40,000 nt of DNA, taken from assembly GCA_964342455.1 (NCBI GenBank), contig CAYFGB010000010.1, positions 1 through 40,000 on the forward strand, written 5' to 3'. The notes below the pieces were generated by a model that was not told where the DNA came from, ran no database searches, and saw only the letters and a program-made list of their open reading frames with translations. Origin of the DNA: an uncultured Hyphomonadaceae bacterium. Its GTDB lineage: Bacteria; Pseudomonadota; Alphaproteobacteria; Caulobacterales; Hyphomonadaceae. The position numbers were made by a program, and so were the translations under genes. Every line of letters starts with the position of its first letter. The stretch's first letter is position 1. Positions 1-12,958 of this stretch are shown in pieces.

Positions 1-109
1 GCGCTGCGTCAGAGAGTTGATCAAGGGAAAAGCCCGGGCGTTTCGCCGTCGGACCGGAAGAAAAATACGGGCACGTCGGGCGTGCTGCCGGTTTGGTGAC
101 AGTCGTCAT
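1..109 (-). CDS. serC: phosphoserine aminotransferase, first 36 codons only (gene runs off the window start)
   Basis: Absent from the ORF track because it is truncated by the window edge. The minus-strand ATG is at 109-107, preceded by AGGAG (rc of 120-124). The translation is MTTVTKPAARPTCPYFSSGPTAKRPGFSLDQLSDAA. It carries the FSSGPxAKRPG(W/F)S N-terminal signature I associate with the short alphaproteobacterial SerC family. Confidence 0.55.
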   Translation of the reverse strand, partial: MTTVTKPAARPTCPYFSSGPTAKRPGFSLDQLSDAA

Positions 110-238
110 CTGTATTGTACTCCTATCCTTACAGATAGGCTGAGCGCCGTTGGGAGCGCCTGGCCCGCAGCCGCTATCTCACAGATCACTTAACAAAGCG
201 AGAGGGAAAATTGTGACATTTTGTAGAGGGGTAAAAGT

Positions 239-275
239 CCCTCTCCTTCCCAAGGAGAGGGATTTAGGGTGAGGT
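239..275. repeat. left inverted repeat flanking the DUF559 gene
   Basis: Hairpin CCCTCTCCTT-ccc-AAGGAGAGGG (239-261) followed by ATTTAGGGTGAGGT. The reverse complement of 623-657 aligns to it over most positions. Confidence 0.8.
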
Positions 276-281
276 TGAATC

Positions 282-623
282 ATGGTTCAATATCCGAAAT
301 CCAGAGCGCGAAAACTTCGCCGCGAACAGACGGCGGCCGAGAAGAAATCCTGGCAGGTCCTGCGTCAGTTTCGTCAATTTGGTTTTCCGATTCGTCGTCA
401 GCACCCGATAGATGGCATGGTCGTGGATTTTGCTTGTCCAAAAGCAAAACTGGTCATTGAAGTCGATGGCGGCATTCATAACTGGACTGAAGTCGCTTCA
501 AGAGATGAAGCGCGAGACAGCGCACTCAAAGAAGCTGGATGGCGTGTAATTCGTATCAGCAATGAGACGGCAACGGATGCTGATACGCTGTTTCGGACGG
601 TGTCGGAATTTCTTCGTTTATAA
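282..623 (+). CDS. DUF559 / Vsr-like endonuclease-domain protein
   Basis: 113-aa ORF. The layout RKLRREQTAAEKKSW..LR...FRRQHPI...VDF.C...KLVIEVDG..H.........D..R...L...GW.V.R is the typical DUF559 (restriction-endonuclease-like fold) pattern. Family assignment is from memory, not from a search. Confidence 0.8.
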   Translation: MVQYPKSRARKLRREQTAAEKKSWQVLRQFRQFGFPIRRQHPIDGMVVDFACPKAKLVIEVDGGIHNWTEVASRDEARDSALKEAGWRVIRISNETATDADTLFRTVSEFLRL

Positions 624-657
624 CCTCACCCCAACCCCCTCCTTGGAAAGGAGGGGG
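623..657. repeat. right inverted repeat flanking the DUF559 gene; its hairpin is the casposon target
   Basis: ACCTCACCCCAA followed by hairpin CCCCCTCCTT-gga-AAGGAGGGGG. This is the reverse-complement partner of 239-275. Confidence 0.8.
640..653. repeat. left copy of putative target-site duplication (TCCTTGGAAAGGAG)
   Basis: The 14-bp core is identical to 12923-12936. The perfect direct repeat extends to 19 bp (635-653 = 12918-12936) if the C-run is counted. Confidence 0.7.
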
Positions 658-664
658 GGGGGGG

Positions 665-691
665 AAATACTAAGGGAAAATCCATGTACCG
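665..691. repeat. left terminal inverted repeat
   Basis: AAATACTAAGGGAAAATCCATGTACCG. The reverse complement of 12888-12914 reads AAATACTAAGGGAAAATCCGTGTACCG. Weaker similarity (8/11) continues for 11 more bp inward. Confidence 0.9.
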
Positions 692-797
692 CTTAGGTTT
701 TGAATGAGGTGCGTGCCATTATGGCGGACATCACTTCAACCACTTTTGCGATACTTTATTCAAGTTTCGCTGACTGTGTCAGCGCCATAAAACGGGA

Positions 798-1109
798 TTA
801 CAACTCAGGCTCACCTTTCGACATTTCATAGCTCTCACGAAATTCTCTTTGAGCATTCTCAAGTCGGTTTTTCACATCATTGAAGCGCTCGACGATACTG
901 TCCCTGTCCAAGGGAGGGGGAGGAAGGTTACTCGGCGTCAACTCTGGAGCTGGTGGCCTCATCTCAAGTTGGCGCTCCAATTCCTCTTTCTCCATTTTAG
1001 TTGCGATGTCCGGCTCTCTGTCCCTGTTATCAGTCGCGATATCAGGAGCGGTCGCATCATTAAATGCTCCACCATCGCCAGAAAGTGCGTCACCAGAATG
1101 ATCAGACAT
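798..1109 (-). CDS. hypothetical acidic, proline-rich protein (last gene of cargo operon)
   Basis: 103-aa ORF. AAGGAG lies 7 nt upstream of the ATG at 1109, and the ORF starts 12 nt after the stop of the upstream ATPase gene. No motif recognised. Confidence 0.5.
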   Translation of the reverse strand: MSDHSGDALSGDGGAFNDATAPDIATDNRDREPDIATKMEKEELERQLEMRPPAPELTPSNLPPPPLDRDSIVERFNDVKNRLENAQREFRESYEMSKGEPEL

Positions 1110-1121
1110 GAGTTTTCTCCT

Positions 1122-2651
1122 TTAAGTTGACCAGCGTTCATCGCCATTCATGTCGTCGAAATGACGCAACCGGTCCTGAAATATTGAAAGCTCCCACCAC
1201 GGGCAGCGACTCGCTTTGATCAGCTTACATCCGCTGATCTCAATCAGCTGAGCGTCCCGTGGCATATTGAGAATATCTGCGACAGGTAAACGATCCACGG
1301 CCTGCTCTCCCCCAGACGCCGAAGCCGTCCGATTATCCGCACCCTCATTGTAATGTTGGCCGTAGCGAGTAATTTTCCCCGCTCGAGCACTCAAGCGCTT
1401 TGCGGTTTCGAGACTATCTACTGAAAGGTGTTGCACCATATCTGCACTTTCGAACAAATCCTTAGTGCCTTCTTTGCCATAGCGATCAACGAGAGACTGT
1501 TCAGTCTGGCTAAACAGCCAGAATGCCAGCCCCCGCTTACGATATTGCCGAACCCAAGTTGGTAGTGCGGTCTTTGGGAATTGAGCAACTTCATCGAAAA
1601 CGAACAACACCTTTTGCGGTCCGTCCACATCAGCCAGCTGGTCAACAATAGCCGTCATCTTGCGCGCTAAATCCGCACTATTGGCCTCCAGATCGACCTC
1701 TGGGCATTGGAGGTACAAGGTTGTGGGCTCTTTTTTCAGACGCGAAACATCAAACGGAGATTTTGCGGCATCTGCACCTAACAGCGTTCCGGGGGCATAC
1801 GGCGTAAAGGCTTTGCGCAGCTTTTCCATTTTCCAATATGCCTGCTTGGATGCGCCTGAGTTCAACTCATCTTGCATCAGAAGCAAATCTTCCATGATCG
1901 CGAGACCAATTTCCGATTGGCTGATATTGTTGACCATAGTTCCGATCATATCGCTGACGGGCTGCGACAAGAACGACCGCATGGAGCGCATGTTCATTAT
2001 CTCGGGAGCATATGCAGCGCCGTACTTCAAAACGGGCTCTGCATAATCCCTCGCGCCTTCTGCAACCCAAGGAGTATCGTTTTCTCCACGTGCATTTGAT
2101 TGAGGCACGAAAGTATGCGTGATATTACTGATATAACGACATGCCGTAACCATATCGCCGCGGGCAGCGCTACTCGTAATATGCGCAAGAGGGCAAATAC
2201 CAACGCTTTCGATACCGTAAGCCCCTGATGGGTTGTTCGCGACCACATTTTGCCCAAGCCAACTTGCGCGAAAATCTGCAGAAACCCGATAATTTTCATG
2301 ACCGATATCGATAACAACAAGGGAGGTATCGTTATCAATCCACCCCAGATTTGGCTGGATGACATCGCTCCCCTTACCAATTCCCGGCTTGCCAACGGTA
2401 ACCTTGCTAAAATGGCGTGGGTGAAAAAGCATACAGTCGTGGAGCTCATCGAACCCGATATAAGCGCCACCGTTCAATAGCCCTGCAGCACGATAGTCAT
2501 CGATATCCGCAAGCCCCCCACTATCGTGCATACCTGAAGTATGCCCCTGCTCTCGAAGTCTACGTTGCTGCAGGGCAACAAATTCCCGCACTTTTCGGTC
2601 CTGATATTCACGATGCTCTTTTATCCATTGGAGCGCATTACGAAGCTTCAT
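1122..2651 (-). CDS. TraG/VirD4-family type IV coupling protein-like ATPase (soluble domain only, no N-terminal TM segment)
   Basis: The Walker A region VGKPGIGKGSDVIQPNL matches the TraG/VirD4 pattern (..SGKG..V.PNLL). Walker B is LFVFDEVAQF. The downstream segment FWLFSQTEQSLVDRYGKEG....SVDSLETAKRLSARAG resembles the conserved Q..QL...YG / TA..LS..G region. The start ATG overlaps the upstream stop codon (ATGA at 2648-2651). Confidence 0.8.
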   Translation of the reverse strand: MKLRNALQWIKEHREYQDRKVREFVALQQRRLREQGHTSGMHDSGGLADIDDYRAAGLLNGGAYIGFDELHDCMLFHPRHFSKVTVGKPGIGKGSDVIQPNLGWIDNDTSLVVIDIGHENYRVSADFRASWLGQNVVANNPSGAYGIESVGICPLAHITSSAARGDMVTACRYISNITHTFVPQSNARGENDTPWVAEGARDYAEPVLKYGAAYAPEIMNMRSMRSFLSQPVSDMIGTMVNNISQSEIGLAIMEDLLLMQDELNSGASKQAYWKMEKLRKAFTPYAPGTLLGADAAKSPFDVSRLKKEPTTLYLQCPEVDLEANSADLARKMTAIVDQLADVDGPQKVLFVFDEVAQFPKTALPTWVRQYRKRGLAFWLFSQTEQSLVDRYGKEGTKDLFESADMVQHLSVDSLETAKRLSARAGKITRYGQHYNEGADNRTASASGGEQAVDRLPVADILNMPRDAQLIEISGCKLIKASRCPWWELSIFQDRLRHFDDMNGDERWST

Positions 2652-3139
2652 CGTTGTCCTCCATGGCGATCTGTTGAACGGCCAATTGGAATTCTATCGT
2701 CCGGCAATATCCTTTTCTTTGGCGTGACATTGATGAGTGGAGGACGTTTCACACGAGGCTGTTCAGCATTTGACCGGCCAGCTTCCTTTCCTCCTCGTCC
2801 GAGTTCCCGCAGTCCATCAATCCAGCTATGGTACTGGGGCCGACCTATGAAGGAGATTGTTGCCCACGTAACCGACCAACCGAAACCTGCGCAAAGGACC
2901 GTACCCACCCACGGCCATAGAATGGGCATCAGGTTAGGGCCAATAAGAGAACCGCTAACCAACCCAATGACCGGACCGAAGAACCACCCAAACAGCTTAA
3001 ATGGACTTGATATCATGCTGTCCATAGTCAGCGAAATGGCGAAGAATGTTCCGACCAAGATGGTAGGGAGAGCTGCGATACGCAGCCCCCACAAAACTGC
3101 ATCAGCAAAAGTGACACCTGAATTTACGTCGAATTCCAT
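2648..3139 (-). CDS. small polytopic membrane protein with basic C-terminal tail (possible detached TM anchor of the coupling protein)
   Basis: Three hydrophobic segments: LRIAALPTILVGTFFAISL, FGWFFGPVIGLVSGSLIG and MPILWPWVGTVLCAGFGWSVTWATISFIG. I prefer the ATG at 3139, with GGAG 7 nt upstream, over the GTG at 3145. There is a 4-nt overlap with the ATPase gene. Confidence 0.6.
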   Translation of the reverse strand: MEFDVNSGVTFADAVLWGLRIAALPTILVGTFFAISLTMDSMISSPFKLFGWFFGPVIGLVSGSLIGPNLMPILWPWVGTVLCAGFGWSVTWATISFIGRPQYHSWIDGLRELGRGGKEAGRSNAEQPRVKRPPLINVTPKKRILPDDRIPIGRSTDRHGGQR

Positions 3140-3151
3140 AATCACGCTCCG

Positions 3152-3832
3152 CTAAAAGAGGTTCTTGATGGAAATATCGTCTGGATGGACACCAGCAGCC
3201 ACGAAGTACGTCCGGTAAGCAGCCTCAAGATTATCCAACTGCCCGATGCTCATTGCGCCTTCATCAGAGACCGGAATCCCAAGGCCAACGAGCGATACAG
3301 AACACCCCTTCAGATACTCTCGCGCTGGTGTTGCGAACTGCTTTTCGCCACTCAGAACATCCATAAGGTTGGTCTCCCGTCCGGTTTCCAGCCCATCTGT
3401 CAGCAAAATGACGGTGCTACCCGGCGAACACTGGATAGGGGCCGTTTGCAGAGCAAAAAAGATCGAGGTTTCGGAGACGGTGAACTTCTCATTTGGAATG
3501 CCCGCAATATATTCGGCCACACCACCCGCGAGCTTGGACACACGGAGTTTCCGACCTGTTGTCCAAGATTTGGGATTGAGAATATCCCAATTCCGATCTC
3601 CGATGTGCTGGAGATAAATTGTATCACCAAGCAACGCACTGTTTGCCAAAAGGCTTGAAACCGACGCAGCTGCACGTTGCGCGTACGCTTCATTCTGCAC
3701 CAATGGAACACTTCCCGTCACATCAAGGAAGACGTAGTGGTTTGCCGGGGTCGAACGACGATCCGTCGCATTTGCCAAACCCGATGTAGCGAGTGCAAGA
3801 CCGAGGCAAAGCATCACAAAAATATTCTTCAT
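3152..3832 (-). CDS. secreted protein with VWA-like (MIDAS-variant) motifs
   Basis: Start set at MKNIFVMLCLGLALATSGLANA, a signal peptide, with an AAGGA RBS and 2 nt after the upstream stop codon (3837-3839). FLDVTGSV (DxTxS), ETSIFF and ILLTDGLET follow the order of VWA metal-site motifs. The fold assignment is tentative. Confidence 0.55.
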   Translation of the reverse strand: MKNIFVMLCLGLALATSGLANATDRRSTPANHYVFLDVTGSVPLVQNEAYAQRAAASVSSLLANSALLGDTIYLQHIGDRNWDILNPKSWTTGRKLRVSKLAGGVAEYIAGIPNEKFTVSETSIFFALQTAPIQCSPGSTVILLTDGLETGRETNLMDVLSGEKQFATPAREYLKGCSVSLVGLGIPVSDEGAMSIGQLDNLEAAYRTYFVAAGVHPDDISIKNLF

Positions 3833-3836
3833 AGTT

Positions 3837-4838
3837 TTAGTCCTTCTTATTGCTGTAAAGGTCGAGGGGATATGCGCCGTGCTCAGCAGCATGGGCCAAT
3901 GTCGGGCGATCCAATGCGCGAAACCGGCGACACAGATTTTCCAGAGCACTGAAGCTGACCGCTTTCAGTCCTTTGTCGGTTGGGAGTATGGCATCGCCTG
4001 TATCTGCCGCGAGGCACTTCTCAGCGAGCGCCTCCTCCAGAGCGCTTGCGAGTGGTTCAATGGCCTCCGAAACAACACTGCCCGTGTCGTCGAAACTCCA
4101 TTCTGGCAAAAGTTGCTCGCGGGCTGTCTGGAGATGATTGAGCTTGCTGGCCGTTTCTCGTGCTTCGCGCAAAACCGCACGTCCTTCAGCGAGTTTAGGC
4201 CAGTCCTCCCAAGCTCGCCGAGCGAGACCAAGCATCAACGAGATCATTGAAGACACCAGCGCGAAGCTTAACAGCGGAAAGCCGAACAAAGTCAGGCTAA
4301 ACCAGCCGGCTCCAATCTGAGCCGCCAATTCCGCAAGAGACTTATCGAACCATCCGTCACCCTCTTCTGGCGCTGTCGCCAGACCGAGACCAAGATCAGT
4401 CGGCTCATTTGCAGCGATCAATCCGTCCGCGATATATGGACCCAGACTTGCGGCGATAAGCCCGCCCAAACCCAGCAATGTCCCGATAACGAACAGCCGC
4501 ATAAGATTCGCGACAATAACCGAGGATTGTTTGTTGGCTTCATGCAGAAATGCATGCGCAGCAATGAAGGCAAAAAATGCAAGGCTGGCAGCGACGACCA
4601 TTCCGAGAGGATTGGATGAGTCATCAACGCCCAATACTGGCGGGAAAGCCGCTTCAAAGGCTGCTAAAATCAGTTTGGCATCCACCATAGTGACGCACGC
4701 AATTGCACCGCACAGAAAGAGGGCTGCTGCAGCTCTAACTGGAGCAAAGCGACCAGCCTTTTGGAGGTCGTATGCAAATTGCTCGATGCATGCCTGAGCG
4801 GCCAGAAGAATGGCTGGTTCTTTGGTGTTGAACTCCAT
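3837..4838 (-). CDS. polytopic membrane protein, function unknown
   Basis: 333-aa ORF with at least 4 hydrophobic helices and a C-terminal helical soluble region. The GGAGG RBS is embedded in the end of the upstream gene. Confidence 0.55.
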   Translation of the reverse strand: MEFNTKEPAILLAAQACIEQFAYDLQKAGRFAPVRAAAALFLCGAIACVTMVDAKLILAAFEAAFPPVLGVDDSSNPLGMVVAASLAFFAFIAAHAFLHEANKQSSVIVANLMRLFVIGTLLGLGGLIAASLGPYIADGLIAANEPTDLGLGLATAPEEGDGWFDKSLAELAAQIGAGWFSLTLFGFPLLSFALVSSMISLMLGLARRAWEDWPKLAEGRAVLREARETASKLNHLQTAREQLLPEWSFDDTGSVVSEAIEPLASALEEALAEKCLAADTGDAILPTDKGLKAVSFSALENLCRRFRALDRPTLAHAAEHGAYPLDLYSNKKD

Positions 4839-4840
4839 GG

Positions 4841-5209
4841 CTACACCTCCCGACCTGCGCGCGCACGCTCGCGGATACGGTCCAGAAAGCCTTTTTCAGG
4901 GTTCACCTGCGTCAATCCATAGAGCATACGGATGCGATGATGGGCGTCTTCGATCTCGGCATCGATTATAGCCACTTGATGCGCTCGCAGTCGGCGGGCC
5001 TCATCATGGAGGCGTGATATCAATCCCGCAGGCGGGATCGTCAGTTTTTCTACGCTGGCGGACAGCTTGTGTTTCAATGCCTCAAATTGCGAATTGTCTG
5101 CATCAATCGGTGCCCAAGCATTCTCTGCCGAACTCTTTTGTGCCGATGATGAATTCGTCTGAGCGAAATCCTCTTCAAACGAGCCAAACCCCTTCATGTC
5201 GTCGGGCAT
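4841..5209 (-). CDS. hypothetical protein (first gene of cargo operon)
   Basis: I prefer the ATG at 5209 (GGGGAG 8 nt upstream) over the GTG at 5218. The C-terminal half looks helical or coiled-coil. No motif recognised. Confidence 0.45.
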   Translation of the reverse strand: MPDDMKGFGSFEEDFAQTNSSSAQKSSAENAWAPIDADNSQFEALKHKLSASVEKLTIPPAGLISRLHDEARRLRAHQVAIIDAEIEDAHHRIRMLYGLTQVNPEKGFLDRIRERARAGREV

Positions 5210-5468
5210 AAGCCGCACTCCCCTGTTCGGGCCCGCGTCAAGCGGTCCGTTGTTGCCGTTTCAATGGGATAATTCCCAGTCACAAGAGAGGTGGGGATTG
5301 TCGAATCTTGGACGCACAAGCGGCCTGATCTGTCACTATCGGTATTACAGCCTGCCCAGTTACGTGAGCTGCGTAATGGGGCGATCCTTCTCCCGACAAA
5401 AGACGTTCATGACCTGCCTCACCTCTGAAAGCAGAGTGTGCACATCATTAGGTATCCTGTCAAGTTTT

Positions 5469-5494
5469 AGATATCCAATTGTATTTGGATATCT
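5469..5494. promoter_or_regulatory. inverted repeat AGATATCCAA-ttgtat-TTGGATATCT (candidate operator)
   Basis: Perfect 10-bp arms. A half-site AGATATCCAAA recurs at 6347-6357, upstream of the 261-aa gene. Confidence 0.45.
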
Positions 5495-6278
5495 AATTAT
5501 GGACTCGACCGGCTAGTTTTTGATTGGAAGGTGTTGGATTAATTCCGACTTCAGCCAGCAAGTCCTGAGGTACTTGATAGCCTTTGCGGATTGCTGCCAG
5601 AAAAAGCTCTCTGGTCATCCATTCGGTTCTGTTGCCGCCTGCTTCTCGGTCTGCAATTGAATTAAATAATTCGATGACTCGTGCATCAACTTTGAAAGAC
5701 AGGTTCTTTTTCCGTACATTTCGGTGATGTTCGGGAGGCAAGTCAGGACATGGAAGCTCCTGTCTCTTTCGCACTCTTCGCTGCGGCTTCTGGCTCTGCA
5801 AGCTATTAGTGATCTGATCGTACAATATTAAATGGTAATAATTTGAATCAATATCCCCCAATAAATTTACATACTTGTCGCTAATCGCAAGAAAGTCTTG
5901 AATATCGTAGAATTCTTCAGAGCGATAACTATCAATAGAATGCGCTAAATCTTGCATTATATCTGCTGATATTCTTTCAAGTGATTTAGTCTGCAAAACT
6001 AACGGCCAAATCTCATCCAAAATCACGGGAGGTTGTCGTCCCTGAATGAGTTCACCGGTTACGGTTTTTTGAAAGTCAGCAGGAATTCGCGACAAAACTT
6101 CGTCGGATAGTTGCCAAATATATGCTTGAAATTCTATTTTGGTGCGAAGCCGACGTTTTCGAAAACCTGAGCGGTCCACCTCTTCGAAACTTCTTTCAGC
6201 AATATCCAGATGTCGCTGATATCTGTCTTCGCCACTGATGGAATCCTCAGATTGAGTAAAGTCAGTTATATTGTCCAT
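5493..6278 (-). CDS. hypothetical protein with C-terminal ribbon-helix-helix-like segment
   Basis: 261-aa ORF with a GGAGAAG RBS and visibly AT-richer codon usage than its neighbours. KNLSFKVDARVIELFNSIADREAGGNRTEWMTRELFLAAIRKG has a strand-helix-helix layout like CopG/Arc-type repressors. The RHH call is tentative. Confidence 0.5.
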   Translation of the reverse strand: MDNITDFTQSEDSISGEDRYQRHLDIAERSFEEVDRSGFRKRRLRTKIEFQAYIWQLSDEVLSRIPADFQKTVTGELIQGRQPPVILDEIWPLVLQTKSLERISADIMQDLAHSIDSYRSEEFYDIQDFLAISDKYVNLLGDIDSNYYHLILYDQITNSLQSQKPQRRVRKRQELPCPDLPPEHHRNVRKKNLSFKVDARVIELFNSIADREAGGNRTEWMTRELFLAAIRKGYQVPQDLLAEVGINPTPSNQKLAGRVHN

Positions 6279-6346
6279 GATGTTGTGCTTCTCCAGTCCT
6301 GAAGCTTCGATTCGAGGCTTTAGTCAGCATATACACAATTATTAAT

Positions 6347-6357
6347 AGATATCCAAA
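6347..6357. promoter_or_regulatory. AGATATCCAAA half-site upstream of the 261-aa gene
   Basis: Same 10-mer as the arms of the 5469-5494 inverted repeat. It lies about 70 bp upstream of the start at 6278. Confidence 0.35.
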
Positions 6358-6619
6358 CGAGACTGTGTGCATAGGTGGTTTCACTCGTCTTTTAGGTGCA
6401 TGACAGCGCCGAAAGTAGCCACCGTTGATCTGGCTACATCAAGTTTAGTTCTTCAGTCGCGCTGAAAAGGCGCCGCGGATGCCTCAGGGGCTCCGCGGAC
6501 AATTGCTTGATGGTCATAGCTCTCAGTTGATCACATCAGCTGTCCGACGAGCGCGCTTTGATCTGCGCACCGGGTTCGCATCGCGCAAGATCGGCTTGGT
6601 GGTTTAATCAACTTCAACA

Positions 6620-6892
6620 CTATGCCGATTTATAAAAGCTGTCTGGCTTCTGTTCCTGTTTGGGCGGGGCATCCAGATGAACGGCAGCCCTCAGAAGAGC
6701 TTCCCTTTGATCGGGCCAAATTTTTTGCAATTCATTAAACGCGGCGAGGCGAGCTATTTGAATGTCTCTAGGGTTTCGAGGGCGTTTGGTCTTGTGGTCA
6801 TAGCTCTCGGTAAGTCTGAGCTGTTGTCTGACCAGCTCCCTTCCGTCTGCGTAGACCGGGCCATACGCATTGCTGCTATTCGATTTAGCCAT
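6620..6892 (-). CDS. hypothetical small protein
   Basis: I prefer the start MAKSNSS at 6892 (GGAGGGA RBS 6 nt upstream) over the ORF-track start at 6940. No motif recognised. Confidence 0.4.
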   Translation of the reverse strand: MAKSNSSNAYGPVYADGRELVRQQLRLTESYDHKTKRPRNPRDIQIARLAAFNELQKIWPDQREALLRAAVHLDAPPKQEQKPDSFYKSA

Positions 6893-6995
6893 ATCACTTC
6901 CCTCCGAAACTATGCGGACATATCCACTCCATTGCTGCACTTAGAAAAAAGTGCTCCTCGAAATCTCAATCGTCAAGGGAAAAAAGGCCGTGTTA

Positions 6996-7012
6996 AATAT
7001 CATAATGATATT
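6996..7012. promoter_or_regulatory. 17-bp palindrome AATATCATAATGATATT (candidate operator, copy 1)
   Basis: Perfect palindrome around a central base. Its reverse complement is identical to copy 2 at 7069-7085. Confidence 0.5.
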
Positions 7013-7068
7013 AATGGTGCAAATAAGGTGTAATATTCACTAACGTTTGACGCCCGTAAGTTCTTATA

Positions 7069-7085
7069 AATATCATTATGATATT
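7069..7085. promoter_or_regulatory. 17-bp palindrome AATATCATTATGATATT (candidate operator, copy 2)
   Basis: Same site as 6996-7012, with centres 73 bp apart. It lies in the spacer between the cas1 stop and the 90-aa gene. Confidence 0.5.
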
Positions 7086-7258
7086 TAATAACTTTCAATG
7101 GTCACGAAGGTGGAGTTTTCGGTAGGGGCTATATCTGTCAGATGAGGTGAGTATTGAGCGCTCAAATTCAGGCACGAAGCCTTAGATTGCGCAAGCAAAC
7201 TATGAGAGCTTATTCCCAGATATGTAAAAGAACCAACTCAATGGGTGGCAGCAGCTTG

Positions 7259-8314
7259 CTACAATTGGCCAGAACACAGACAGGCCCCAACTGATAAAAT
7301 GGCCGCCAGCTTCGCCGACAGCCTGCACATTCCATCTTGTCGGATGTAAAAGTCTTTCACTGTGAACCGTTCATTCAGTGCAAACTCCAACACAGCCTTA
7401 TCGACTTCAGGCCTATGTGGTTCAATGAGGTCCAACACATAGGAAGGGCGCTCTTCATAATTGCCATGAAAGATGCCGAAGTTCGGATCGTATCCGTGCG
7501 CCACCACGTCTAGTCGAATTTGAGATTCCAGAACCGCATAGCCATAGTTCAACATGGCATTGATGGGGTGATCCGCCTTTCGGTTACGCGCATTCTTACC
7601 TGCAATATTGGATGACCGTTTTGAATAGCTGAGCCATGGCGTTGGAACAGGATGTTGATTAATGCCCTTCCACCTCAACTCCAATCCGTTCCAGACATCG
7701 AAGTACCGTGCGGCAGCAACGCCTTCGATGCCCCGCAAGGCATCGACGCTGTCGGCTTCTCCATTTGCAATCTTGTGAAGGCCTTTCTCGGCCCAGATTT
7801 CCGCTTCGCGCCTCACCTCTGACGGCGGAAAAATTTCCCGTAATGTCACAAGGCTCGCTTCGAGCTTTCGTCTCACCAAAGCAGCACAAAAATCGAGACG
7901 TTTTTTCGGGTCATTTCGAATGGCAATTTGTTCCTGTAGTCTGACTGCGCAGATTGCGCCTTTTGATCCTCCGACAATGGCGCTGACTTTTCCCTTATAG
8001 GAGAGGTTCAAAAGCACCACGTCTTGAGCTTCCAGCCAGTCCAAAACAGCAAGCGTAATTGCGCCGGATGTTTCGATAAAAATGATGCGTTCTGGAATAG
8101 CCATTTCACCGGGATAAAACCGCCAGAACTTTTTCTCCTCGCTCGCATAGCTGCGCCCATTCTCAATTTCGAGTGCACCATTTCTGATGCGCAATTGGAC
8201 GCCATGTCCCGTCAAAATCAGTGGGTGCTTTCTTCGATGTCTGGCAAGCGTTTTAGGTTCCAGTTTTTCCGCTTTATTTTCCCAATACGCACAGCGCGAA
8301 TCCCAAGTGTCCAT
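7259..8314 (-). CDS. cas1: Cas1-family integrase (solo Cas1, casposase-like)
   Basis: 351 aa. The N-terminal beta domain is LILTGHGVQLRIRNGALEI...IIFIETSGAITLAVLDWLEAQDVVLLNL. The helical catalytic domain has LRGIEGVAAARYF (Glu), KADHPINAMLNYGYAVL (His) and GYDPNFGIFHG.....SYVLDLIEPHRPEVD (acidic residue). Order and spacing are typical of Cas1 (PF01867-type). Confidence 0.9.
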   Translation of the reverse strand: MDTWDSRCAYWENKAEKLEPKTLARHRRKHPLILTGHGVQLRIRNGALEIENGRSYASEEKKFWRFYPGEMAIPERIIFIETSGAITLAVLDWLEAQDVVLLNLSYKGKVSAIVGGSKGAICAVRLQEQIAIRNDPKKRLDFCAALVRRKLEASLVTLREIFPPSEVRREAEIWAEKGLHKIANGEADSVDALRGIEGVAAARYFDVWNGLELRWKGINQHPVPTPWLSYSKRSSNIAGKNARNRKADHPINAMLNYGYAVLESQIRLDVVAHGYDPNFGIFHGNYEERPSYVLDLIEPHRPEVDKAVLEFALNERFTVKDFYIRQDGMCRLSAKLAAILSVGACLCSGQL

Positions 8315-8571: not shown

Positions 8572-9084
8572 ATGCCAAGGAAAACGAGTAAGAAGCGGTA
8601 TCGCTGGACGCGAAGCAAAGCGAATGAGCGCTTCGCTGCACTGCCAACGGAACGCAGGAGAGCCTATAGACTTGCTTTTCTGAGTGTGAAGAAAGGCGCG
8701 AGCATTACTAAAGCAGCTAGAGACTTTCACGTGGACCGTGAGAACCTCTCCTCATACGTCATAGCGAATTCACGGTTCAGGAGGAAGAAGGGTGGAAAGC
8801 TCAAAATCCTTCAGGATAAGCGTGTCGTGCCAAGAAGCGTTGTCACCACTGGCGGCTTGCTTCGACTCTCCATGAGTGCCGACCAAATCGAGAAAATCAG
8901 CGCACACAATCGCGATGTCGAACGCGAACGGCAGAACAAACAAGTTGGTGTTTTGGCGAAATGGGAAGGTGAGCAGGTCAGAGACACCGATGGTAATCGG
9001 TATGATTTGCTCTTTTCCAGAGAGGAATTGTTTGAAGTTCTACCGCCTAATGAAGCGCGGGATGACAATTACGACGAGGCGTAA
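8572..9084 (+). CDS. helix-turn-helix DNA-binding protein
   Basis: 170 aa. GASITKAARDFHVDRENLSSYV looks like a classical HTH. The gene ends 1 nt before the HNH gene start. Confidence 0.6.
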   Translation: MPRKTSKKRYRWTRSKANERFAALPTERRRAYRLAFLSVKKGASITKAARDFHVDRENLSSYVIANSRFRRKKGGKLKILQDKRVVPRSVVTTGGLLRLSMSADQIEKISAHNRDVERERQNKQVGVLAKWEGEQVRDTDGNRYDLLFSREELFEVLPPNEARDDNYDEA

Positions 9085-9085
9085 C

Positions 9086-9922
9086 ATGTCAGGGTTTCAA
9101 ACAGCAAAAGAAACGCACAAGCGCGCCACGCAGTCAGCACGGCGCGAACGCCAGCTTAAAATGCGGGGTCATGCTTGCTACATGTGCGGTGTTGAAGACC
9201 CCGAACTTCTGAAACTCGTCTATCTCGATGAGAAGAACATGTGGGACAAGTCGGAGGCTGTGCTGTGTCGTAACCACCGCCAGCTTCTTACCGTTTATCA
9301 AAACGCGGAAAAACTGCCTCAAGGGTTCCGACCCAACAGCAATGTAACCGTTTTCGATGCGCTATACATGGAAGCCAGCTTCGCTGACATGAACCGCCAA
9401 TCCTCCCTCAATAATCATAAGCAGTTTGCTGCTGAACATGTTGACCAAACGCTTCAACTTTCAAATCTGATTGAAGACCATTCGATACTCAAAAAGCGCC
9501 TGAAGAAGGCGATGAAGAAAGACCCATTTGGAACTCACGCAGATTGTTATTGTGCGATTTGCCATGAAGTGAGGCCAATGGTTCTGGAAGCTCATCATGT
9601 GGACAGGGAGGGGCTATCCGAGCGAGCCATTATTCTCTGTCATAACCATCATGACCTTGTCTCAATTGAGCAAAGATATCACCCCGACAAAGACGCGCTC
9701 CTATCGCTTGCGGATGACTATCGCGATTTTGTTGCTCAACGCCTTGGGATGGATGTTCTCGAAAAATTAGCTGCAATGCAGAAAGAGGCGACATCCAAAG
9801 TTCTATTCGATGATGCCATTCTGATGGCAAAAATTCACCAACTCGCAAATTCGCCGGATGCCGAGCTATCTGCAGAAGAATTTGAGGAAATGCTGGTTCC
9901 GGGTGTGGTAAAATGGAGCTGA
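9086..9922 (+). CDS. HNH endonuclease-domain protein (two Cys/His modules)
   Basis: Start moved to MSGFQT at 9086, because the ORF-track extension 8876-9085 overlaps the HTH gene. Module 1 is CYMCG...LCRNHRQL. Module 2 is CAICHEV..LEAHHVD......LCHNHHDLV. The stop overlaps the polB ATG by 10 nt. Confidence 0.75.
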   Translation: MSGFQTAKETHKRATQSARRERQLKMRGHACYMCGVEDPELLKLVYLDEKNMWDKSEAVLCRNHRQLLTVYQNAEKLPQGFRPNSNVTVFDALYMEASFADMNRQSSLNNHKQFAAEHVDQTLQLSNLIEDHSILKKRLKKAMKKDPFGTHADCYCAICHEVRPMVLEAHHVDREGLSERAIILCHNHHDLVSIEQRYHPDKDALLSLADDYRDFVAQRLGMDVLEKLAAMQKEATSKVLFDDAILMAKIHQLANSPDAELSAEEFEEMLVPGVVKWS

Positions 9923-12867
9923 AGCTTCGCGCCTTCGTAACACCTGAGAAAGGATTTAAGGGCTCGCGGCGAAAGCCATTTCCCAGACATCGCAGTGGAC
10001 GGACACTAACTTTCGATTGCGAAACACGCACAGACGCATCACAGCGTTTGCGGTTCGGAGCATATCGCATTGATGACGAGCCAGATGAGAATGGTGAAAC
10101 ACTCGTCTCCGAGGGCTTGTTTTACGATGAAGGCGGACTGGAAGACGGTGAGCTCGAAACACTGAAAGAGTATGCCCATTCTGAAGGTTTGCCGATTCTC
10201 AGCTATCAAGAATTCAGTGAAGAGATATTGCTCAGCCAATGTTACGAGCTGTCAGGCACAATAATCGGCTTCAACCTACCATTCGATTTGTCGCGCCTAG
10301 CCGTCAATGCATCCCCTTCCCGTAGATACAAGAACGATGACCGTTTTGAGAACGGCATTACGCTTCATCTTTTGCCCAATCAAAAGTATCGCGGAAAAGT
10401 TCGCGTTGGTCATGTAAACGCCAATCGGTCACATCTCTCATTCTACAAGGAGTTTGACTCCTACTATTTCGGCAACTTCATCGACGTGAAGACGCTCGGC
10501 ACTTCGTTGTTGTCCGGCACGTCCAGCCTTGCATCGGTTGCGAAGGCACTCGGAGTTTCGCATGAAAAAATGGAGACAGACGAGCACGGCAAGACGCTCA
10601 CGCGGGATTATATCGAATACGCCCGAAACGATGTGACCTGCACGTGGGAGTGCTATTGCGAACTGCTCACGCGACTAGGCACCCATGCGTTTGACGATTT
10701 AGACGATATGCAGGTCAACAGCGAAGCAAGCATAGGAAAAGCGTATCTTCGAGACTTCGGCATTCTGCCTTGGCGACAAGTCCAACCGAATTTTCCGCCT
10801 GAAATCACCGGCAAGATTATGAGTAGCTATTTCGGCGGTCGGACAGAAGTTCGTATTCGCCGGGACATCCGCGAAGTGTTCTATGCAGATTTCCTGTCCA
10901 TGTACCCAACGGTAAATGCGCTCATGGGGTTGTGGAAGTTCGTCATTGCGGAAGGCGTGGACTATGACGAGAGCGAAGACGCGAAATCTTGGACGACGGA
11001 GTTTCTTGAAAACGTCACCGGGGGAGATTTTCAATGCCAAGAGATTTGGCGAGACCTGCCGACGCTGGTTCAAGTTAAGCCTGATGATGACGTCCTTCCC
11101 ATTCGGGCTGATTTCGCAGATTCAGGCACAACCAATATCGGCATTAATCACCTGACATCTGACGCGCCGCTTTGGTTCACGCTCGCCGATTGCGTCGTGT
11201 CCAAACTGTTGACGGGCAAAACTCCGAAAGTTGAACGCGCAATTCGGTTCAGCCCAAAGTTACCTCAACATGGCCTGAAAACGAAAACACTACTGGGTCA
11301 AACGGACGGCGTGATTGACCCCTATAGTGACGACTTTTTCAAACGATTGATTGAAGAGCGCGCCAAACTGAAGGCGGCGAAGAACTCAGCGGCAGGTGAA
11401 GAAAAAGCCCGTCTGAAAATTGCAGAGAAAACCGTCAAGATTATTGCTAATGCGGCAAGCTACGGGCTCTTCATTGAGTTGAACCCGAAAGACTATCCAG
11501 AACCTCAAAGCGCTATTCGTTATGGGTTTGAGGTTGAGCCGCACGCGTTCGAAACCAAGACACTTGAGATACCCGGAGAGTATTTCCACCCACTTTTGGC
11601 AACCTGCATAACAGGTGCGGCTAGGCTCATGCTGGCGCTGGCTGAATGGCGCGCTGCGCAGCACAAAATAAACTGGACGTTCTGTGACACAGACGGACTG
11701 GCACTCGCAAAGCCAGACCATATGGAAAGAGCGGATTTTCTCACCAAATGTCGTGATGTTCTCGATTGGTTTAAACCGCTCAATCCATATGACGGGCAAG
11801 CTGGAATTTCTGTCCTTGAGCCCGAGGAAGAGAACTTCCACCCTGATTACGAAGTTGAAAAATCCAATCCTGATTGGACGCAGCTCCAACCTCTTTATTG
11901 CTATGCTGTTTCAGCGAAACGCTATGTCCTGTTCAACGAAATTGATGGCGACATCAATATCAGAAAATCTTCAGCTCACGGACTTGGCTATTGGGCGACA
12001 CCCTTTGGGGAGTTTGATGAAACTGCTGGTGAGTGGGAATGGCGCTTGGCACTTTGGGAGCACATCATCAAAGCTGCCAGAGAAGACAAAGATGATGAAA
12101 TCGACCTCTCGAAAGACGACCGCTTCAATCTAGCTGCAGCCGGACAATCAACCATTACGCGTTGGGATCAATTCCAATGGTATGCCCGATACAATGCGCA
12201 ACAAGCCACAGGCCATGGCCCGATTGATGATTATCGAAACGGTATTCAGCCGTTCAATTTCTTCCTTCGATTTCTGAACAAAGCTCATGACCGTGTTGAT
12301 GACACGAATCCAGATGTCGAAATCTGGCGTGCAATTGTTGGCCGGGAGCCAAAGCTTGCAGCGCCGTTCGATAAAGACTTGGGAACTGCAGCCTCACAAC
12401 TTTTCGACATTGAAGCCCAAACGAACGACGCGACAGAGGCGATTGATTTTTCGCCTTGGCTTCGGTCCTTCAGCGATAGGTTTTCCGACTATAATCTCCA
12501 TCGCGAAAACAAGTTCGCCGATTGTCAGGTCCACACAAAAGGACTTCTTCAGAGAAGGCACGTTCAAGCGAGCGGATTTGCGCACATCGGTAAGGAAAGC
12601 CATGATTGGGACGAAACACTTGTCCCGTGGGCCAATGAAAGCGGCGGAATTAGTTTCGGAACGTCCAATCTCGACACAGCATCAAAGCGGGACATCATCT
12701 TGAACGCATTGAGCAAAGGAACGTGCAGCTCAAATCAGCTTGTTCGGATGACGGGCGTTTCCAAAACCACGATGAGCCACTTGAAGCAGGGCAAACCTAT
12801 TCCACTGTCCAGCCTAGCGAAACTCCATGACGCGGTGATGTCGTTGCTGCACGCCGAAACGGTCTAG
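9913..12867 (+). CDS. polB: family B DNA polymerase with 3'-5' exonuclease domain and C-terminal HTH
   Basis: ExoI is FDCET (D at 10015). ExoII is GFNLPFDLSRL (N at 10273). ExoIII is YARNDV (Y at 10618). Motif A is YADFLSMYPT (D at 10888). Motif B is KIIANAASYGLF (11437-11472). Motif C is FCDTDGLAL (DTD at 11687-11695). A KxY motif, SAKRYVL, is also present. The C-terminal segment NQLVRMTGVSKTTMSHLKQGKPIPLSSL looks like an XRE-type HTH. Confidence 0.9.
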   Translation: MELKLRAFVTPEKGFKGSRRKPFPRHRSGRTLTFDCETRTDASQRLRFGAYRIDDEPDENGETLVSEGLFYDEGGLEDGELETLKEYAHSEGLPILSYQEFSEEILLSQCYELSGTIIGFNLPFDLSRLAVNASPSRRYKNDDRFENGITLHLLPNQKYRGKVRVGHVNANRSHLSFYKEFDSYYFGNFIDVKTLGTSLLSGTSSLASVAKALGVSHEKMETDEHGKTLTRDYIEYARNDVTCTWECYCELLTRLGTHAFDDLDDMQVNSEASIGKAYLRDFGILPWRQVQPNFPPEITGKIMSSYFGGRTEVRIRRDIREVFYADFLSMYPTVNALMGLWKFVIAEGVDYDESEDAKSWTTEFLENVTGGDFQCQEIWRDLPTLVQVKPDDDVLPIRADFADSGTTNIGINHLTSDAPLWFTLADCVVSKLLTGKTPKVERAIRFSPKLPQHGLKTKTLLGQTDGVIDPYSDDFFKRLIEERAKLKAAKNSAAGEEKARLKIAEKTVKIIANAASYGLFIELNPKDYPEPQSAIRYGFEVEPHAFETKTLEIPGEYFHPLLATCITGAARLMLALAEWRAAQHKINWTFCDTDGLALAKPDHMERADFLTKCRDVLDWFKPLNPYDGQAGISVLEPEEENFHPDYEVEKSNPDWTQLQPLYCYAVSAKRYVLFNEIDGDINIRKSSAHGLGYWATPFGEFDETAGEWEWRLALWEHIIKAAREDKDDEIDLSKDDRFNLAAAGQSTITRWDQFQWYARYNAQQATGHGPIDDYRNGIQPFNFFLRFLNKAHDRVDDTNPDVEIWRAIVGREPKLAAPFDKDLGTAASQLFDIEAQTNDATEAIDFSPWLRSFSDRFSDYNLHRENKFADCQVHTKGLLQRRHVQASGFAHIGKESHDWDETLVPWANESGGISFGTSNLDTASKRDIILNALSKGTCSSNQLVRMTGVSKTTMSHLKQGKPIPLSSLAKLHDAVMSLLHAETV

Positions 12868-12887
12868 CTTTCTAGCCAACACCCAAC

Positions 12888-12914
12888 CGGTACACGGATT
12901 TTCCCTTAGTATTT
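12888..12914. repeat. right terminal inverted repeat
   Basis: CGGTACACGGATTTTCCCTTAGTATTT, the reverse complement of 665-691 with one mismatch. It begins 20 nt after the polB stop. Confidence 0.9.
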
Positions 12915-12922
12915 ACCCCCCC

Positions 12923-12936
12923 TCCTTGGAAAGGAG
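12923..12936. repeat. right copy of putative target-site duplication (TCCTTGGAAAGGAG)
   Basis: Identical to 640-653. It sits inside a third copy of the host hairpin (12916-12943) that lacks the ACCTCACCCC part of the DUF559 flank. Confidence 0.7.
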
Positions 12937-12958
12937 AGGGAGGCGCTGAACTTTAACG

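What the first reader, a model, noticed from the sequence alone, without database searches (positions are those of the whole stretch)
635..691. 27-bp terminal inverted repeats abutting a G/C homopolymer, with ambiguous element boundary
The left end reads G(12) then AAATACTAAGGGAAAATCCATGTACCG. The right end, reverse-complemented, reads G(7) T then AAATACTAAGGGAAAATCCGTGTACCG. The unambiguous TIR is 27 bp. If the homopolymers are element-borne, the TIR is about 35-38 bp and the flanking perfect direct repeat is exactly the 14-bp TCCTTGGAAAGGAG. That length matches the 14-15-bp duplications reported for casposase integration. If the homopolymers are host-derived, the duplication is about 19-30 bp and imperfect.
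Basis: seen in the sequence. Interest (0 to 1): 0.75.

Follow-up and report, generated by a model that had tools for sequence, protein, structure and literature searches.

The report
Ends of a bacterial casposon
The repeats are the two ends of a 12.3-kb self-replicating transposon that uses a Cas1 enzyme to insert (a bacterial "casposon"); comparison with 34 relatives shows that the G/C runs belong to the element, that insertion copied 14 bp of host DNA, and that this family usually lands in the middle of host DNA hairpins.

Summary
Window 654-12922 is a ~12.3-kb family-3-type bacterial casposon in a marine alphaproteobacterial (TARA) scaffold. It carries a solo Cas1, a family-B DNA polymerase, an HNH-like ORF and unrelated cargo that includes a TraG/VirD4-like ATPase.

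The inverted repeat is real: 26/27 in the core and about 46-49 nt at 88%. The 14-bp direct repeat is exact.

Three lines of evidence show that the homopolymers are element-borne.
- Across 35 complete relatives, the TIR always starts with a G run, and 14 bp is the one duplication length that fits nearly all of them. It is exactly 14 where the flanks have no G/C runs.
- A sister element with 91% nucleotide identity and a different central 14-mer has the same long runs plus T: C10 | 14 nt | G11-T.
- Four of five head-to-tail TIR-TIR junctions have exactly 14 nt between the runs.

Corrections:
- The G12 run shares one G with the 14-mer.
- Other assemblies read the left end as G10-11 followed by T.
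- The register of the 14-mer is ambiguous by 1 nt.

The duplicated sequence is the core of a host REP-like hairpin at the 3' end of a DUF559 gene. About 70% of family members sit on the axis of such hairpins.

The element is a new member of a known kind. I did not find the hairpin preference described in the literature I could search.

The parts
239..276 (.). Solo host REP-like unit: hairpin CCCTCTCCTT-CCC-AAGGAGAGGG (239-261) plus tail ATTTAGGGTGAGGTT. It shows what an uninterrupted copy of the target repeat looks like.
   Evidence: D2/D3, I3, I10; DNA fold -11.6 kcal/mol, z -2.8
282..623 (+). Host DUF559 endonuclease-domain gene (113 aa), flanked by the two REP-like units in inverted orientation.
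   Evidence: PF04480 E 1e-28; I10
622..639 (.). Tail (AACCTCACCCCAA) and outer left arm (CCCCC) of the second REP-like unit. This is host DNA left of the insertion.
640..653 (.). Left copy of the 14-bp target-site duplication TCCTTGGAAAGGAG. An equally possible register is 639-652, CTCCTTGGAAAGGA. The maximal perfect repeat is 635-653.
654..702 (+). Left TIR, on the TraG side. It consists of G11 (a run of 12 together with G653; G10-11+T in other assemblies), the core AAATACTAAGGGAAAATCCATGTACCG (665-691), and weaker similarity out to 702.
798..6278 (-). Cargo module. ORFs: 798-1109 (103 aa), 1122-2651 (TraG/VirD4-like coupling ATPase, 509 aa), 2648-3145, 3152-3949, 3837-4838, 4841-5218 and 5493-6278 (no family hits). 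This module is absent from the sister element L111.
7259..8314 (-). Casposase: solo Cas1, 351 aa. The catalytic Glu/His/Asp columns are invariant in the family alignment. There is no Cas2 or CRISPR array in the window.
8572..9084 (+). Conserved 170-aa core ORF of unknown function, present in L008, L011 and L111.
9086..9922 (+). Conserved 278-aa core ORF with two CxxC...HNH-like motifs. It is a weak match to HNH endonuclease.
   Evidence: (phrog_1271 E 3e-3)
9913..12867 (+). Family-B DNA polymerase, 984 aa. Motifs: ExoI FDCET, motif A DFLSMYP, motif C FCDTDG. It has a C-terminal HTH.
   Evidence: (phrog_1907 E 3e-13)
12877..12922 (-). Right TIR, on the PolB side. Read on the - strand: G7 (12916-12922), T (12915), then the core AAATACTAAGGGAAAATCCGTGTACCG (12888-12914), with weaker similarity to 12877.
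12923..12936 (.). Right copy of the 14-bp target-site duplication. The alternative register is 12922-12935. The maximal repeat is 12918-12936.
12937..12943 (.). AGGGAGG: outer right arm of the interrupted host hairpin. This is host DNA right of the insertion.
   Evidence: (I3)

Best explanation
Window 654-12922 is an integrated bacterial casposon of the family-3 type, about 12.27 kb long.

Mechanism (inferred from the family and from published casposase biochemistry). The element-encoded Cas1 (casposase) joined the 3'-OH of each TIR end to the two strands of the target, 14 bp apart. Gap repair then duplicated those 14 bp.

What travels with the element (shown by comparison). The G/C homopolymers and the following T are the outermost bases of the TIRs. 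The family-wide terminal signature is G3-5. This lineage has expanded it to about 7-12 G, and the length is unstable.

The target (shown). The element landed on the axis of a GC-rich palindromic hairpin. This hairpin belongs to a host REP-like repeat that closes a DUF559 gene cassette. Because the target is palindromic, C-rich on one arm and G-rich on the other, it merges with the G-run termini.

Target preference (inferred). The casposase docks with two-fold symmetry on palindromic targets. About 70% of 35 family members sit on such hairpins, with the duplication centred on the loop. The duplication regenerates a target, which explains the head-to-tail arrays seen in relatives.
For: Element identity:
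- Cas1 PF01867 E 8e-36 and TIGR00287 above its cutoff.
- The closest solved structure is the M. mazei casposase 6OPM.
- PolB motifs are present.
- There is no tRNA, CRISPR or tandem repeat in the window.
- GC is about 0.49 inside the element against about 0.56 outside.

Relatives:
- At least 586 related loci exist in GTDB species genomes, mostly Alphaproteobacteria. They include the published family-3 host Hyphomonas sp. CY54-11-8 (L078).

Duplication length of 14 bp:
- 14 bp is feasible in 31/35 elements by automatic trimming and in 22 of the 23 elements checked with hand-defined TIR cores (L026 and L083 become feasible there).
- 13 bp is feasible in 27, 15 bp in 26 and 19 bp in 8.
- The repeat is exactly 14 in L059 (AACGAGAACAAAAA) and at most 14 in L011, L034, L044, L075 and L085.
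- The published NitAL212-C1 has a 14-nt DR and a TIR starting GGGG.
- In vitro, A. boonei casposase gives 14-15 bp.

Runs travel with the element:
- Every family TIR starts with G3 or more.
- Sister element L111 is 90.9% identical over 5.6 kb of core, with different cargo. Its junction reads C10 | TCCACCGTAGCAGA (14 nt) | G11 T AAATAC.
- TIR-TIR junctions in L023, L027 and L071 also have exactly 14 nt between the runs.
- Contig L114 starts at TAAATACTAAG.

The hairpin is host target, not TIR:
- Asymmetric loops are repeated directly, not invertedly.
- The TTGGGGTGAGG tail lies on one side only.
- A solo copy sits at 239-276.
- 25/35 reconstructed targets have a hairpin of at least 8 pairs, and in 24 the axis lies within about 3.5 nt of the repeat centre. 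20/35 reach P<0.05 against host control windows.
Against: - No empty site and no second copy of this exact element at another site were found. The 14-bp call for this copy therefore rests on family inference.
- With a typical G4-5 terminus, the PolB-side junction would imply a 16-17-bp duplication. The maximal perfect repeat is 19 bp.
- The two G runs are unequal (7 vs 10-12). This requires post-insertion or lineage-specific slippage, or assembly error in homopolymers.
- One family member (L078) needs at least 15 bp under the run-trimming rule, and L034 gives unequal runs (4/2) at 14 bp.
- The reconstructed target hairpin has one C·A mismatch and is not significantly more stable than shuffles (z -0.8).
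- No family-3 casposase has been studied biochemically, according to the 2021 and 2023 papers read.
Confidence: 0.85

Rival explanations
1. The homopolymers are host-derived. The target was a hairpin with long C/G arms, and insertion duplicated 19-30 bp imperfectly. The TIR would then start at (T)AAATAC.
For: The perfect direct repeat can be extended to 19 bp, CCCCCTCCTTGGAAAGGAG. The target arms are C- and G-rich, so some run bases could be target-derived.
Against: - The outer host flanks are caaCCCCC and AGGGAGG, not long homopolymers. The solo REP copy reads CCCTCTCC/GGAGAGGG.
- The TraG-side run of 10-12 cannot come from a CCCTCTCC arm.
- L111 has the same long runs around an unrelated 14-mer.
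- 19 bp is feasible in only 8/35 relatives, and six relatives cap the repeat at 14.
- Elements in targets without G/C runs still start GGG(G) (L059, L044, L075).
Confidence: 0.07
2. The palindrome (hairpin) is part of the element's TIR and the true duplication is very short. This follows the published annotation of HenMar-C1, which has a 37-nt palindrome-containing TIR and a 1-nt DR.
For: A directly duplicated palindrome also scores as an inverted repeat (I2, several loci). Krupovic 2014 Fig. S2 lists HenMar-C1 TIRs as CCCCCTCTCCCG[G/C]ATCGGGAGGGGATAAGGG. In that case the two loops differ by 1 nt when read as inverted repeats, and by more when read as direct repeats.
Against: - In the window and in at least 12 relatives, the non-palindromic loop is repeated in direct orientation. 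Examples are GGA, ATCA, TTTGG, TCTC, ATCGA, GCAAATA and GAAT.
- The REP tail is on one side only.
- The hairpin sequence differs between closely related elements while the TIR is conserved.
- Solo hairpins occur without any casposon (239-276).
- Some family members have no hairpin at all yet keep a 14-bp DR (L059, L044, L075).
Confidence: 0.04
3. It is a Tn3-family (or other DDE) transposon. A ~38-bp inverted repeat that starts GGGG, plus a ~1000-aa ORF ending next to one IR, resembles Tn3.
For: The IR length of 35-38 bp, the GGGG start and a 984-aa ORF ending 20 bp from the right IR.
Against: - The 984-aa protein is a family-B DNA polymerase with Exo and Pol motifs and a PHROG DNA polymerase match. 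It has no DDE transposase or resolvase hit.
- The 5-bp flanks are not duplicated (GGGGG vs CCCTC).
- Cas1 is present and conserved with the TIRs across the family.
Confidence: 0.01
4. The direct repeat is not made by insertion. Instead, the element sits between two pre-existing REP copies, or the flanks were homogenised by recombination.
For: REP-like units are repeated in this genome: a third, diverged copy lies 400 bp away.
Against: - The two flanking half-units complement each other into a single REP unit, with the tail only on the left and the outer arm only on the right.
- The same TIR-adjacent repeat of about 14 bp recurs in 35 elements with unrelated sequences, including non-repetitive targets.
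Confidence: 0.03

Closest known systems
Family 3 (bacterial) casposons: NitAL212-C1, HenMar-C1, Hyphomonas sp. CY54-11-8, Citromicrobium (Krupovic et al. 2014, 2016; PMC4046053, PMC4779613)
   Same: - A solo Cas1, a PolB and an HNH-like gene.
- TIRs of ~35 nt that begin with G4.
- Intergenic insertion.
- A 14-nt DR in NitAL212-C1.
- An alphaproteobacterial host.
- Cas1 is 35-41% identical to the Hyphomonas/Henriciella/Novosphingobium copies.
   Different: - Only 50-54% Cas1 identity even to the nearest metagenomic relatives outside its own 90% cluster.
- A different TIR core (AAATACTAAGGG...CGTGTACCG rather than TATAGTGAT).
- G runs expanded to 7-12.
- Cargo that includes a TraG/VirD4-like ATPase.
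- The literature I read describes family-3 targets only as 'intergenic'. Here the target is a REP-like hairpin.
Family 2 casposons AciBoo-C1 (A. boonei) and MetMaz-C1 (M. mazei), the biochemically studied casposases
   Same: - A 14-15-bp duplication set by a fixed distance between active sites.
- Only a few terminal TIR nucleotides are needed.
- A palindromic element (the tRNA TψC arm) lies in the A. boonei target.
- Tandem re-insertion into the regenerated target.
- The best PDB match of this Cas1 is 6OPM.
   Different: - Archaeal hosts.
- tRNA 3'-end targets with an upstream leader-like motif.
- The casposase carries a C-terminal HTH. Here the HTH is on the PolB.
- Cas1 similarity is remote (E 1e-16).
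CRISPR adaptation by Cas1-Cas2
   Same: Both use a Cas1-fold integrase. Both make staggered attacks on two strands that duplicate a frequently palindromic repeat, and repeated use builds arrays.
   Different: This locus has no Cas2, no leader and no array. A 12-kb element is inserted instead of a ~32-bp spacer. The duplicated unit is 14 bp rather than 28-37 bp.
REP/hairpin-targeting insertion sequences, such as IS1397/ISKpn1 and IS110-family elements that insert into REP units (from my own knowledge; an IS110 example appears in the list)
   Same: Preferential insertion into the loop or stem of intergenic palindromic repeats. This is a safe-harbour strategy.
   Different: The recombinases are unrelated (DDE or DEDD). 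Those elements are small and have no polymerase.
Tn3-family transposons
   Same: Inverted repeats of ~38 bp that start GGGG, and a ~1000-aa ORF adjacent to one end.
   Different: There is no DDE transposase or resolvase and no 5-bp duplication. The large ORF is a PolB.

Membership tests
Casposon (superfamily) | Cas1-family integrase not associated with Cas2 or a CRISPR array | tested here: met
   PF01867 E 8e-36 and TIGR00287 at 110 bits against a cutoff of 71.7. No tandem repeats were found in 40 kb. No Cas2 was found among the Pfam-scanned element ORFs. The invariant Glu/His/Asp columns are E197, H283 and D295.
Casposon (superfamily) | Family-B DNA polymerase inside the element | tested here: met
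   The 984-aa ORF has FDCET, DFLSMYP and FCDTDG motifs. It matches PHROG DNA polymerase at E 3e-13. The Pfam PF03175 hit scores 24.8 bits, just below the 25.8 cutoff. There is no PDB sequence hit.
Casposon (superfamily) | Terminal inverted repeats bounding the element | tested here: met
   The core matches 26/27 and the arms are 46-49 nt at 88%.
Casposon (superfamily) | Target-site duplication of about 14-15 bp | tested here: met
   14 bp is the only length that fits nearly all of 35 relatives. Four TIR-TIR junctions have 14 nt between the runs. For this copy, 14 bp is inferred; the bounds from the sequence alone are 13-19 bp.
Family 3 casposons | Cas1 falls in the bacterial family-3 clade | tested here: inconclusive
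   The best named relatives are Hyphomonas, Henriciella and Novosphingobium (35-53% identity, E down to 2e-117). They include the published family-3 host Hyphomonas sp. CY54-11-8 (L078). Similarity to the family-2 casposase is far weaker (E 1e-16). No phylogenetic tree was built.
Family 3 casposons | [quoted passage not shown] | tested here: inconclusive
   The 278-aa core ORF has two CxxC...H-N-H-like motifs and a weak PHROG HNH hit at E 3e-3. It has no Pfam or NCBIfam hit.
Family 3 casposons | RNA-primed (not protein-primed) type of PolB | not tested
   The only weak Pfam hit is to DNA_pol_B_2, the protein-primed or organellar type, and it is below the cutoff. No phylogeny or structure was made.
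Active, mobile casposon | Demonstrated integration or excision (empty site, or copies at several sites) | tested here: not met
   All 7 contigs carrying the flanking genes have the element at the same site. No empty site was found in JGI metagenomes. The 13 hits to the TIR 19-mer are chance matches. Indirect signs of recent activity are intact ORFs, a perfect DR and a 91%-identical sister element elsewhere (L111).
Tn3-family transposon | DDE transposase TnpA and a 5-bp duplication | tested here: not met
   There is no transposase hit. The 5-bp flanks differ.

The most novel reading that the evidence does not exclude
Bacterial (family-3-type) casposases preferentially integrate on the symmetry axis of GC-rich palindromic hairpins, which are REP-like repeats and terminator-like stems. 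They duplicate a palindromic 14-bp core.

The conserved G-run at each TIR tip then rebuilds a stem at both junctions and regenerates a target. Repeated insertion therefore gives head-to-tail arrays of the form 'palindromic repeat - insert - palindromic repeat'.

This would be a natural and widespread analogue of CRISPR repeat duplication, with at least 586 loci. It would also mean that the palindromic 'TIR' published for HenMar-C1 is really duplicated target.

A further possibility, unresolved here, is that the TIR-14 nt-TIR junction in the terminally redundant contig L111 is the circular excision intermediate. That intermediate was postulated but not detected for MetMaz-C1.
Probability: 0.55. 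Interest if true: 0.6.

Novelty: new member of a known kind. Interest (0 to 1): 0.5.

Why it matters
Casposons are the proposed ancestors of the CRISPR adaptation module. According to the 2021 and 2023 papers I read, biochemical data exist only for archaeal casposases, and bacterial (family 3) targets are described only as 'intergenic'.

This locus and its 34 relatives give:
- a clean rule for family-3 ends: a G-run tip and a 14-bp duplication;
- a target preference for palindromic hairpins centred on the duplication, which resembles the palindromic CRISPR repeat and can be tested directly in vitro;
- a likely correction to a published TIR annotation (HenMar-C1);
- evidence that these elements are far more common in Alphaproteobacteria than the handful described.

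For annotation, the result shows that homopolymer and palindrome overlap can make casposon boundaries and TSD lengths appear variable (1-27 nt in the 2014 survey) when the underlying stagger may be constant.

Tried and rejected
- Empty site by exact-protein look-ups of the flanking genes (DUF559, the 81-aa ORF). All contigs carry the element.
- Empty site through homologues of the 171-aa neighbour. Only 51-54%-identical sister taxa exist. L096 keeps synteny (serC leader, then the 173-aa gene) but lacks the DUF559 cassette, the REP hairpins and the casposon altogether. It is therefore not an empty site for the casposon.
- Empty-site DNA pattern in JGI metagenomes: 0 hits.
- TIR 19-mer in IMG/VR: 0 hits.
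- TIR 19-mer in JGI metagenomes: 13 hits, all chance matches without a G run or GTGTACCG.
- Cas1 profile in IMG/VR: 4 weak loci, not informative.
- Tn3-like reading: rejected on protein content.
- tRNA target: none in the window.
- Orientation specificity relative to the REP tail: considered and dropped. The tail is on the non-PolB side in the window, L008, L011, L025 and L034, but on the other side in L072 and L073.
- Cargo function: no Pfam, NCBIfam, PHROG or PADLOC hits apart from the T4CP-like ATPase.
- DUF559 as a general neighbour of the target: not seen in L008.

Full report
**1. The observation.**
The left end of the window reads ...AACCTCACCCCAA CCCCC TCCTTGGAAAGGAG G11 AAATACTAAGGGAAAATCCATGTACCG.... 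The right end reads ...CGGTACACGGATTTTCCCTTAGTATTT A C7 TCCTTGGAAAGGAG AGGGAGG....

- The 27-nt core occurs only at 665-691 (+) and 12888-12914 (-). It has one A/G mismatch, and none are expected by chance.
- The arms extend to 46-49 nt at 88-89% identity.
- The 14-mer is exact at 640-653 and 12923-12936. The perfect repeat can be extended to 19 bp, at 635-653 / 12918-12936.
- The homopolymer is 12 G (653-664), but its first G is the last base of the 14-mer.
- Independent assemblies of the same insertion read the left end as G10T (L001, L003), G11T (L004, L005) or G12 (window, L002).
- The right end is G7T in every assembly that covers it: the window, L001, L002, L006 and L007. The T therefore belongs to both ends, and the left run is unstable or hard to assemble.

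**2. What the element is.**
Between the repeats lie the following genes.

- A solo Cas1 at 7259-8314 (-). It matches PF01867 at E 8e-36 and TIGR00287 above its cutoff. The best solved relative is the M. mazei casposase 6OPM.
- A 984-aa family-B DNA polymerase at 9913-12867 (+). It carries ExoI FDCET, motif A DFLSMYP and motif C FCDTDG, with a C-terminal HTH. It matches PHROG DNA polymerase at E 3e-13.
- A 278-aa ORF with two HNH-like zinc motifs.
- A conserved 170-aa ORF.
- A cargo block at 798-6278 (-). Its only recognisable product is a TraG/VirD4-like coupling ATPase.

There is no CRISPR array, no tRNA and no Cas2 in the window. GC is about 0.49 inside the element and about 0.56 outside. 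This is a casposon. The source is a TARA Oceans marine scaffold.

The nearest Cas1 outside its own 90% cluster is only 50-54% identical. Named relatives at 35-53% identity are Hyphomonas, Henriciella, Novosphingobium and other Alphaproteobacteria. They include Hyphomonas sp. CY54-11-8, a published family-3 host. A profile scan of one genome per GTDB species found at least 586 related loci.

**3. Which bases travel with the element.**
I collected 35 complete elements: the window, L008, L011 and 32 genome loci. For each I listed every duplication length compatible with the junctions when G or C run bases may belong to either the TIR or the target.

| Duplication length | Elements in which it is feasible (of 35) |
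|---|---|
| 13 bp | 27 |
| 14 bp | 31 |
| 15 bp | 26 |
| 16 bp | 21 |
| 19 bp | 8 |

- The table gives automatic trimming. In the earlier check of 23 elements with hand-defined TIR cores, 14 bp was feasible in 22, including L026 and L083.
- The repeat is exactly 14 where the target has no G/C at its edges (L059, AACGAGAACAAAAA).
- It is at most 14 in L011, L034, L044, L075 and L085.
- It is at least 14 in L027, L071 and L073.
- At 14 bp the TIR tips are G3-G5 in most elements. All family TIRs begin with a G run even though the rest of the TIR varies: TATAGTGAT, ATAAAGC, AAATAC, TGTTGC, TAATACG.

A sister element gives independent support. L111 has a Cas1 within the same 90% cluster, 90.9% nucleotide identity over the 5.6-kb core, and completely different cargo. 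Its junction reads TIR-R A C10 | TCCACCGTAGCAGA | G11 T AAATACTAAGG. That is the same long runs plus T around an unrelated 14-mer.

Head-to-tail TIR-TIR junctions in L023, L027 and L071 likewise have exactly 14 nt between the C and G runs. L083 has 13, which is ambiguous. The published NitAL212-C1 has a 14-nt DR and a TIR starting GGGG. A. boonei casposase makes 14-15-bp duplications in vitro through a fixed 'yardstick'.

Conclusion: the homopolymers and the T are the tips of the TIRs, and the duplication is 14 bp.
- The TIRs are then about 35 bp (PolB side) and about 38 bp (TraG side) to the end of the strict core.
- The register is ambiguous by one base: TCCTTGGAAAGGAG with G7/G11, or CTCCTTGGAAAGGA with G6/G12.
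- A 15-bp duplication cannot be excluded for this single copy.

**4. What the target is.**
The duplicated 14-mer is the core of a palindrome. The reconstructed empty site reads AACCTCACCCCAA-CCCCCTCCTT-GGA-AAGGAGAGGG-AGG.
- This is the mirror image of a solo unit 400 bp away (239-276: CCCTCTCCTT-CCC-AAGGAGAGGG-ATTTAGGGTGAGG).
- The two units flank a DUF559 gene as inverted repeats.
- The hairpin is therefore host DNA, not TIR. Its loop is repeated directly, its tail lies on one side only, and a copy exists without a casposon.

The three nearest complete relatives (L008, L011, L016) are also inserted in CCCTCTCCC..GGGAGAGGG hairpins with different loops.

Across the family:
- 25 of 35 reconstructed targets have a hairpin of at least 8 pairs with at most one mismatch.
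- In 24 of these the axis lies within about 3.5 nt of the repeat centre.
- 20 of 35 exceed 95% of control windows from the same host DNA.
- The targets are either REP-like units (CCCTCTCC...GGAGAGGG + TAGGGTGAGGG) or terminator-like stems (AAAAGGCC...GGCCTTTT).
- About 30% are not hairpins (for example L059, L044, L075), so this is a preference and not a requirement.
- Where the position is unambiguous, the 14 bp are centred on the axis: 7/7 in L034, L073 and L085, and within ±1 in L011 and L027.
- In the window the loop has an odd length. A 14-mer can therefore only be placed 6+1+7 or 7+1+6, which are exactly the two possible registers.

**5. Mechanism.**

Shown:
- the element's identity;
- the TIRs;
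- the 14-bp repeat;
- the host origin of the hairpin;
- the family-wide G-run tips.

Inferred from published casposase biochemistry:
- Cas1 joins the 3'-OH of both ends, 14 bp apart, on a target that it engages with two-fold symmetry.
- Gap filling duplicates the 14 bp.

Inferred from the anatomy:
- The target arms are C-rich and G-rich, and the TIR tips are G runs. The junctions therefore fuse into long homopolymers, which then slip. This explains G7 against G10-12, the variation between assemblies, and a similar expansion in L077.
- The G-run tip rebuilds a stem at each junction. The left junction folds at -16.8 kcal/mol, z -3.2.
- The duplicated core regenerates a target. This explains the tandem or remnant TIRs next to L023, L027, L071, L083 and L111.

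**6. Comparison with what is known.**
The element fits the casposon definition on all four structural criteria, and by similarity it fits family 3. The HNH gene and the PolB type are only weakly tested or untested, and no tree was built.
- Krupovic et al. (2014) already noted that TIRs and TSDs often overlap.
- That survey listed HenMar-C1 with a 37-nt palindrome-containing TIR and a 1-nt DR.
- The HenMar-like relatives L020 and L073 show that the palindrome occupies the position of the duplicated host hairpin. The published annotation is therefore probably a misassignment. I could not retrieve the H. marina locus, and its two printed loops fit an inverted reading slightly better. This point stays open.
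- The papers I could search describe family-3 targets only as 'intergenic'. Neither those papers nor two further searches turned up a hairpin or REP preference for bacterial casposons.

**7. Verdict.**
- The element is a new member of a known kind.
- The added value is threefold: the family-wide rule (G-run tip plus 14-bp stagger), the hairpin-centred target preference, and the scale of the family.
- What is missing is an empty site or an integration assay for this particular element.

Noticed in passing
L111 (TARA_SAMEA6042536 scaffold_4820) 1-13005; junctions at 427 and 12199: This contig carries a 91%-identical sister casposon and is terminally redundant. Positions 56-1233 are identical to 11828-13005 (period 11,772 bp), with a TIR-R / C10 / 14 nt / G11-T / TIR-L junction. 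It is either a head-to-tail tandem array or a circular form carrying one copy of the target. The latter is the intermediate postulated but not detected for MetMaz-C1 (PMC10359463). The first 55 nt do not fit a perfect circle.
   Followed up: partly
L111 7182-11946: The sister element's cargo looks like a lasso-peptide gene cluster. It has an Asn-synthase-like protein (528 aa), a Transglut_core3 protein (192 aa) and a 55-aa candidate precursor (MKNFVAKALQLFGYQVKKEALIKGPGYGAHGDYQNQMWYN). A second variant at the contig start has the same leader but a different C-terminus. The window's element carries entirely different cargo.
   Followed up: no
window 1122-2651 (-) and 798-6278: A TraG/VirD4-like type IV coupling ATPase sits inside a casposon, followed by five ORFs with no hit in Pfam, NCBIfam, PHROGs or PADLOC. 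Its function is unknown; mobilisation, DNA translocation or defence are possibilities.
   Followed up: partly
window 118-170 (-): An Rfam serC leader (RF00517, 43.1 bits) lies upstream of the host serC-serA operon, which continues left of the window. The sister taxon L096 has this leader followed directly by the 173-aa gene. Relative to L096, the DUF559 cassette, both REP hairpins, the 81-aa ORF region and the casposon are all extra DNA.
   Followed up: partly
window 239-641: The DUF559 endonuclease-domain gene is bracketed by inverted REP-like units (hairpin plus GGGTGAGG tail). It looks like a small mobile cassette in its own right, and the casposon used its terminal hairpin as a landing site.
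   Followed up: no
L023 5256, L027 3812, L071 14663, L083 14070: In four chromosomal relatives, a second TIR (from a neighbouring element or a remnant) abuts the casposon across a single 13-14-nt segment. Tandem insertion into the regenerated target therefore seems common in this bacterial family.
   Followed up: partly
window 9913-12867 (+), residues 938-973: In this clade the helix-turn-helix domain is at the C-terminus of the PolB (HTH_26, E 2e-4) rather than on the casposase as in family 2. It may be the TIR- or target-binding module.
   Followed up: no
L009 1480-1720: A contig with the same Cas1 as L008 (P0002) has the PolB gene abutting an AP-endonuclease gene, with no recognisable TIR between them. 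It may be a decayed or rearranged copy.
   Followed up: no
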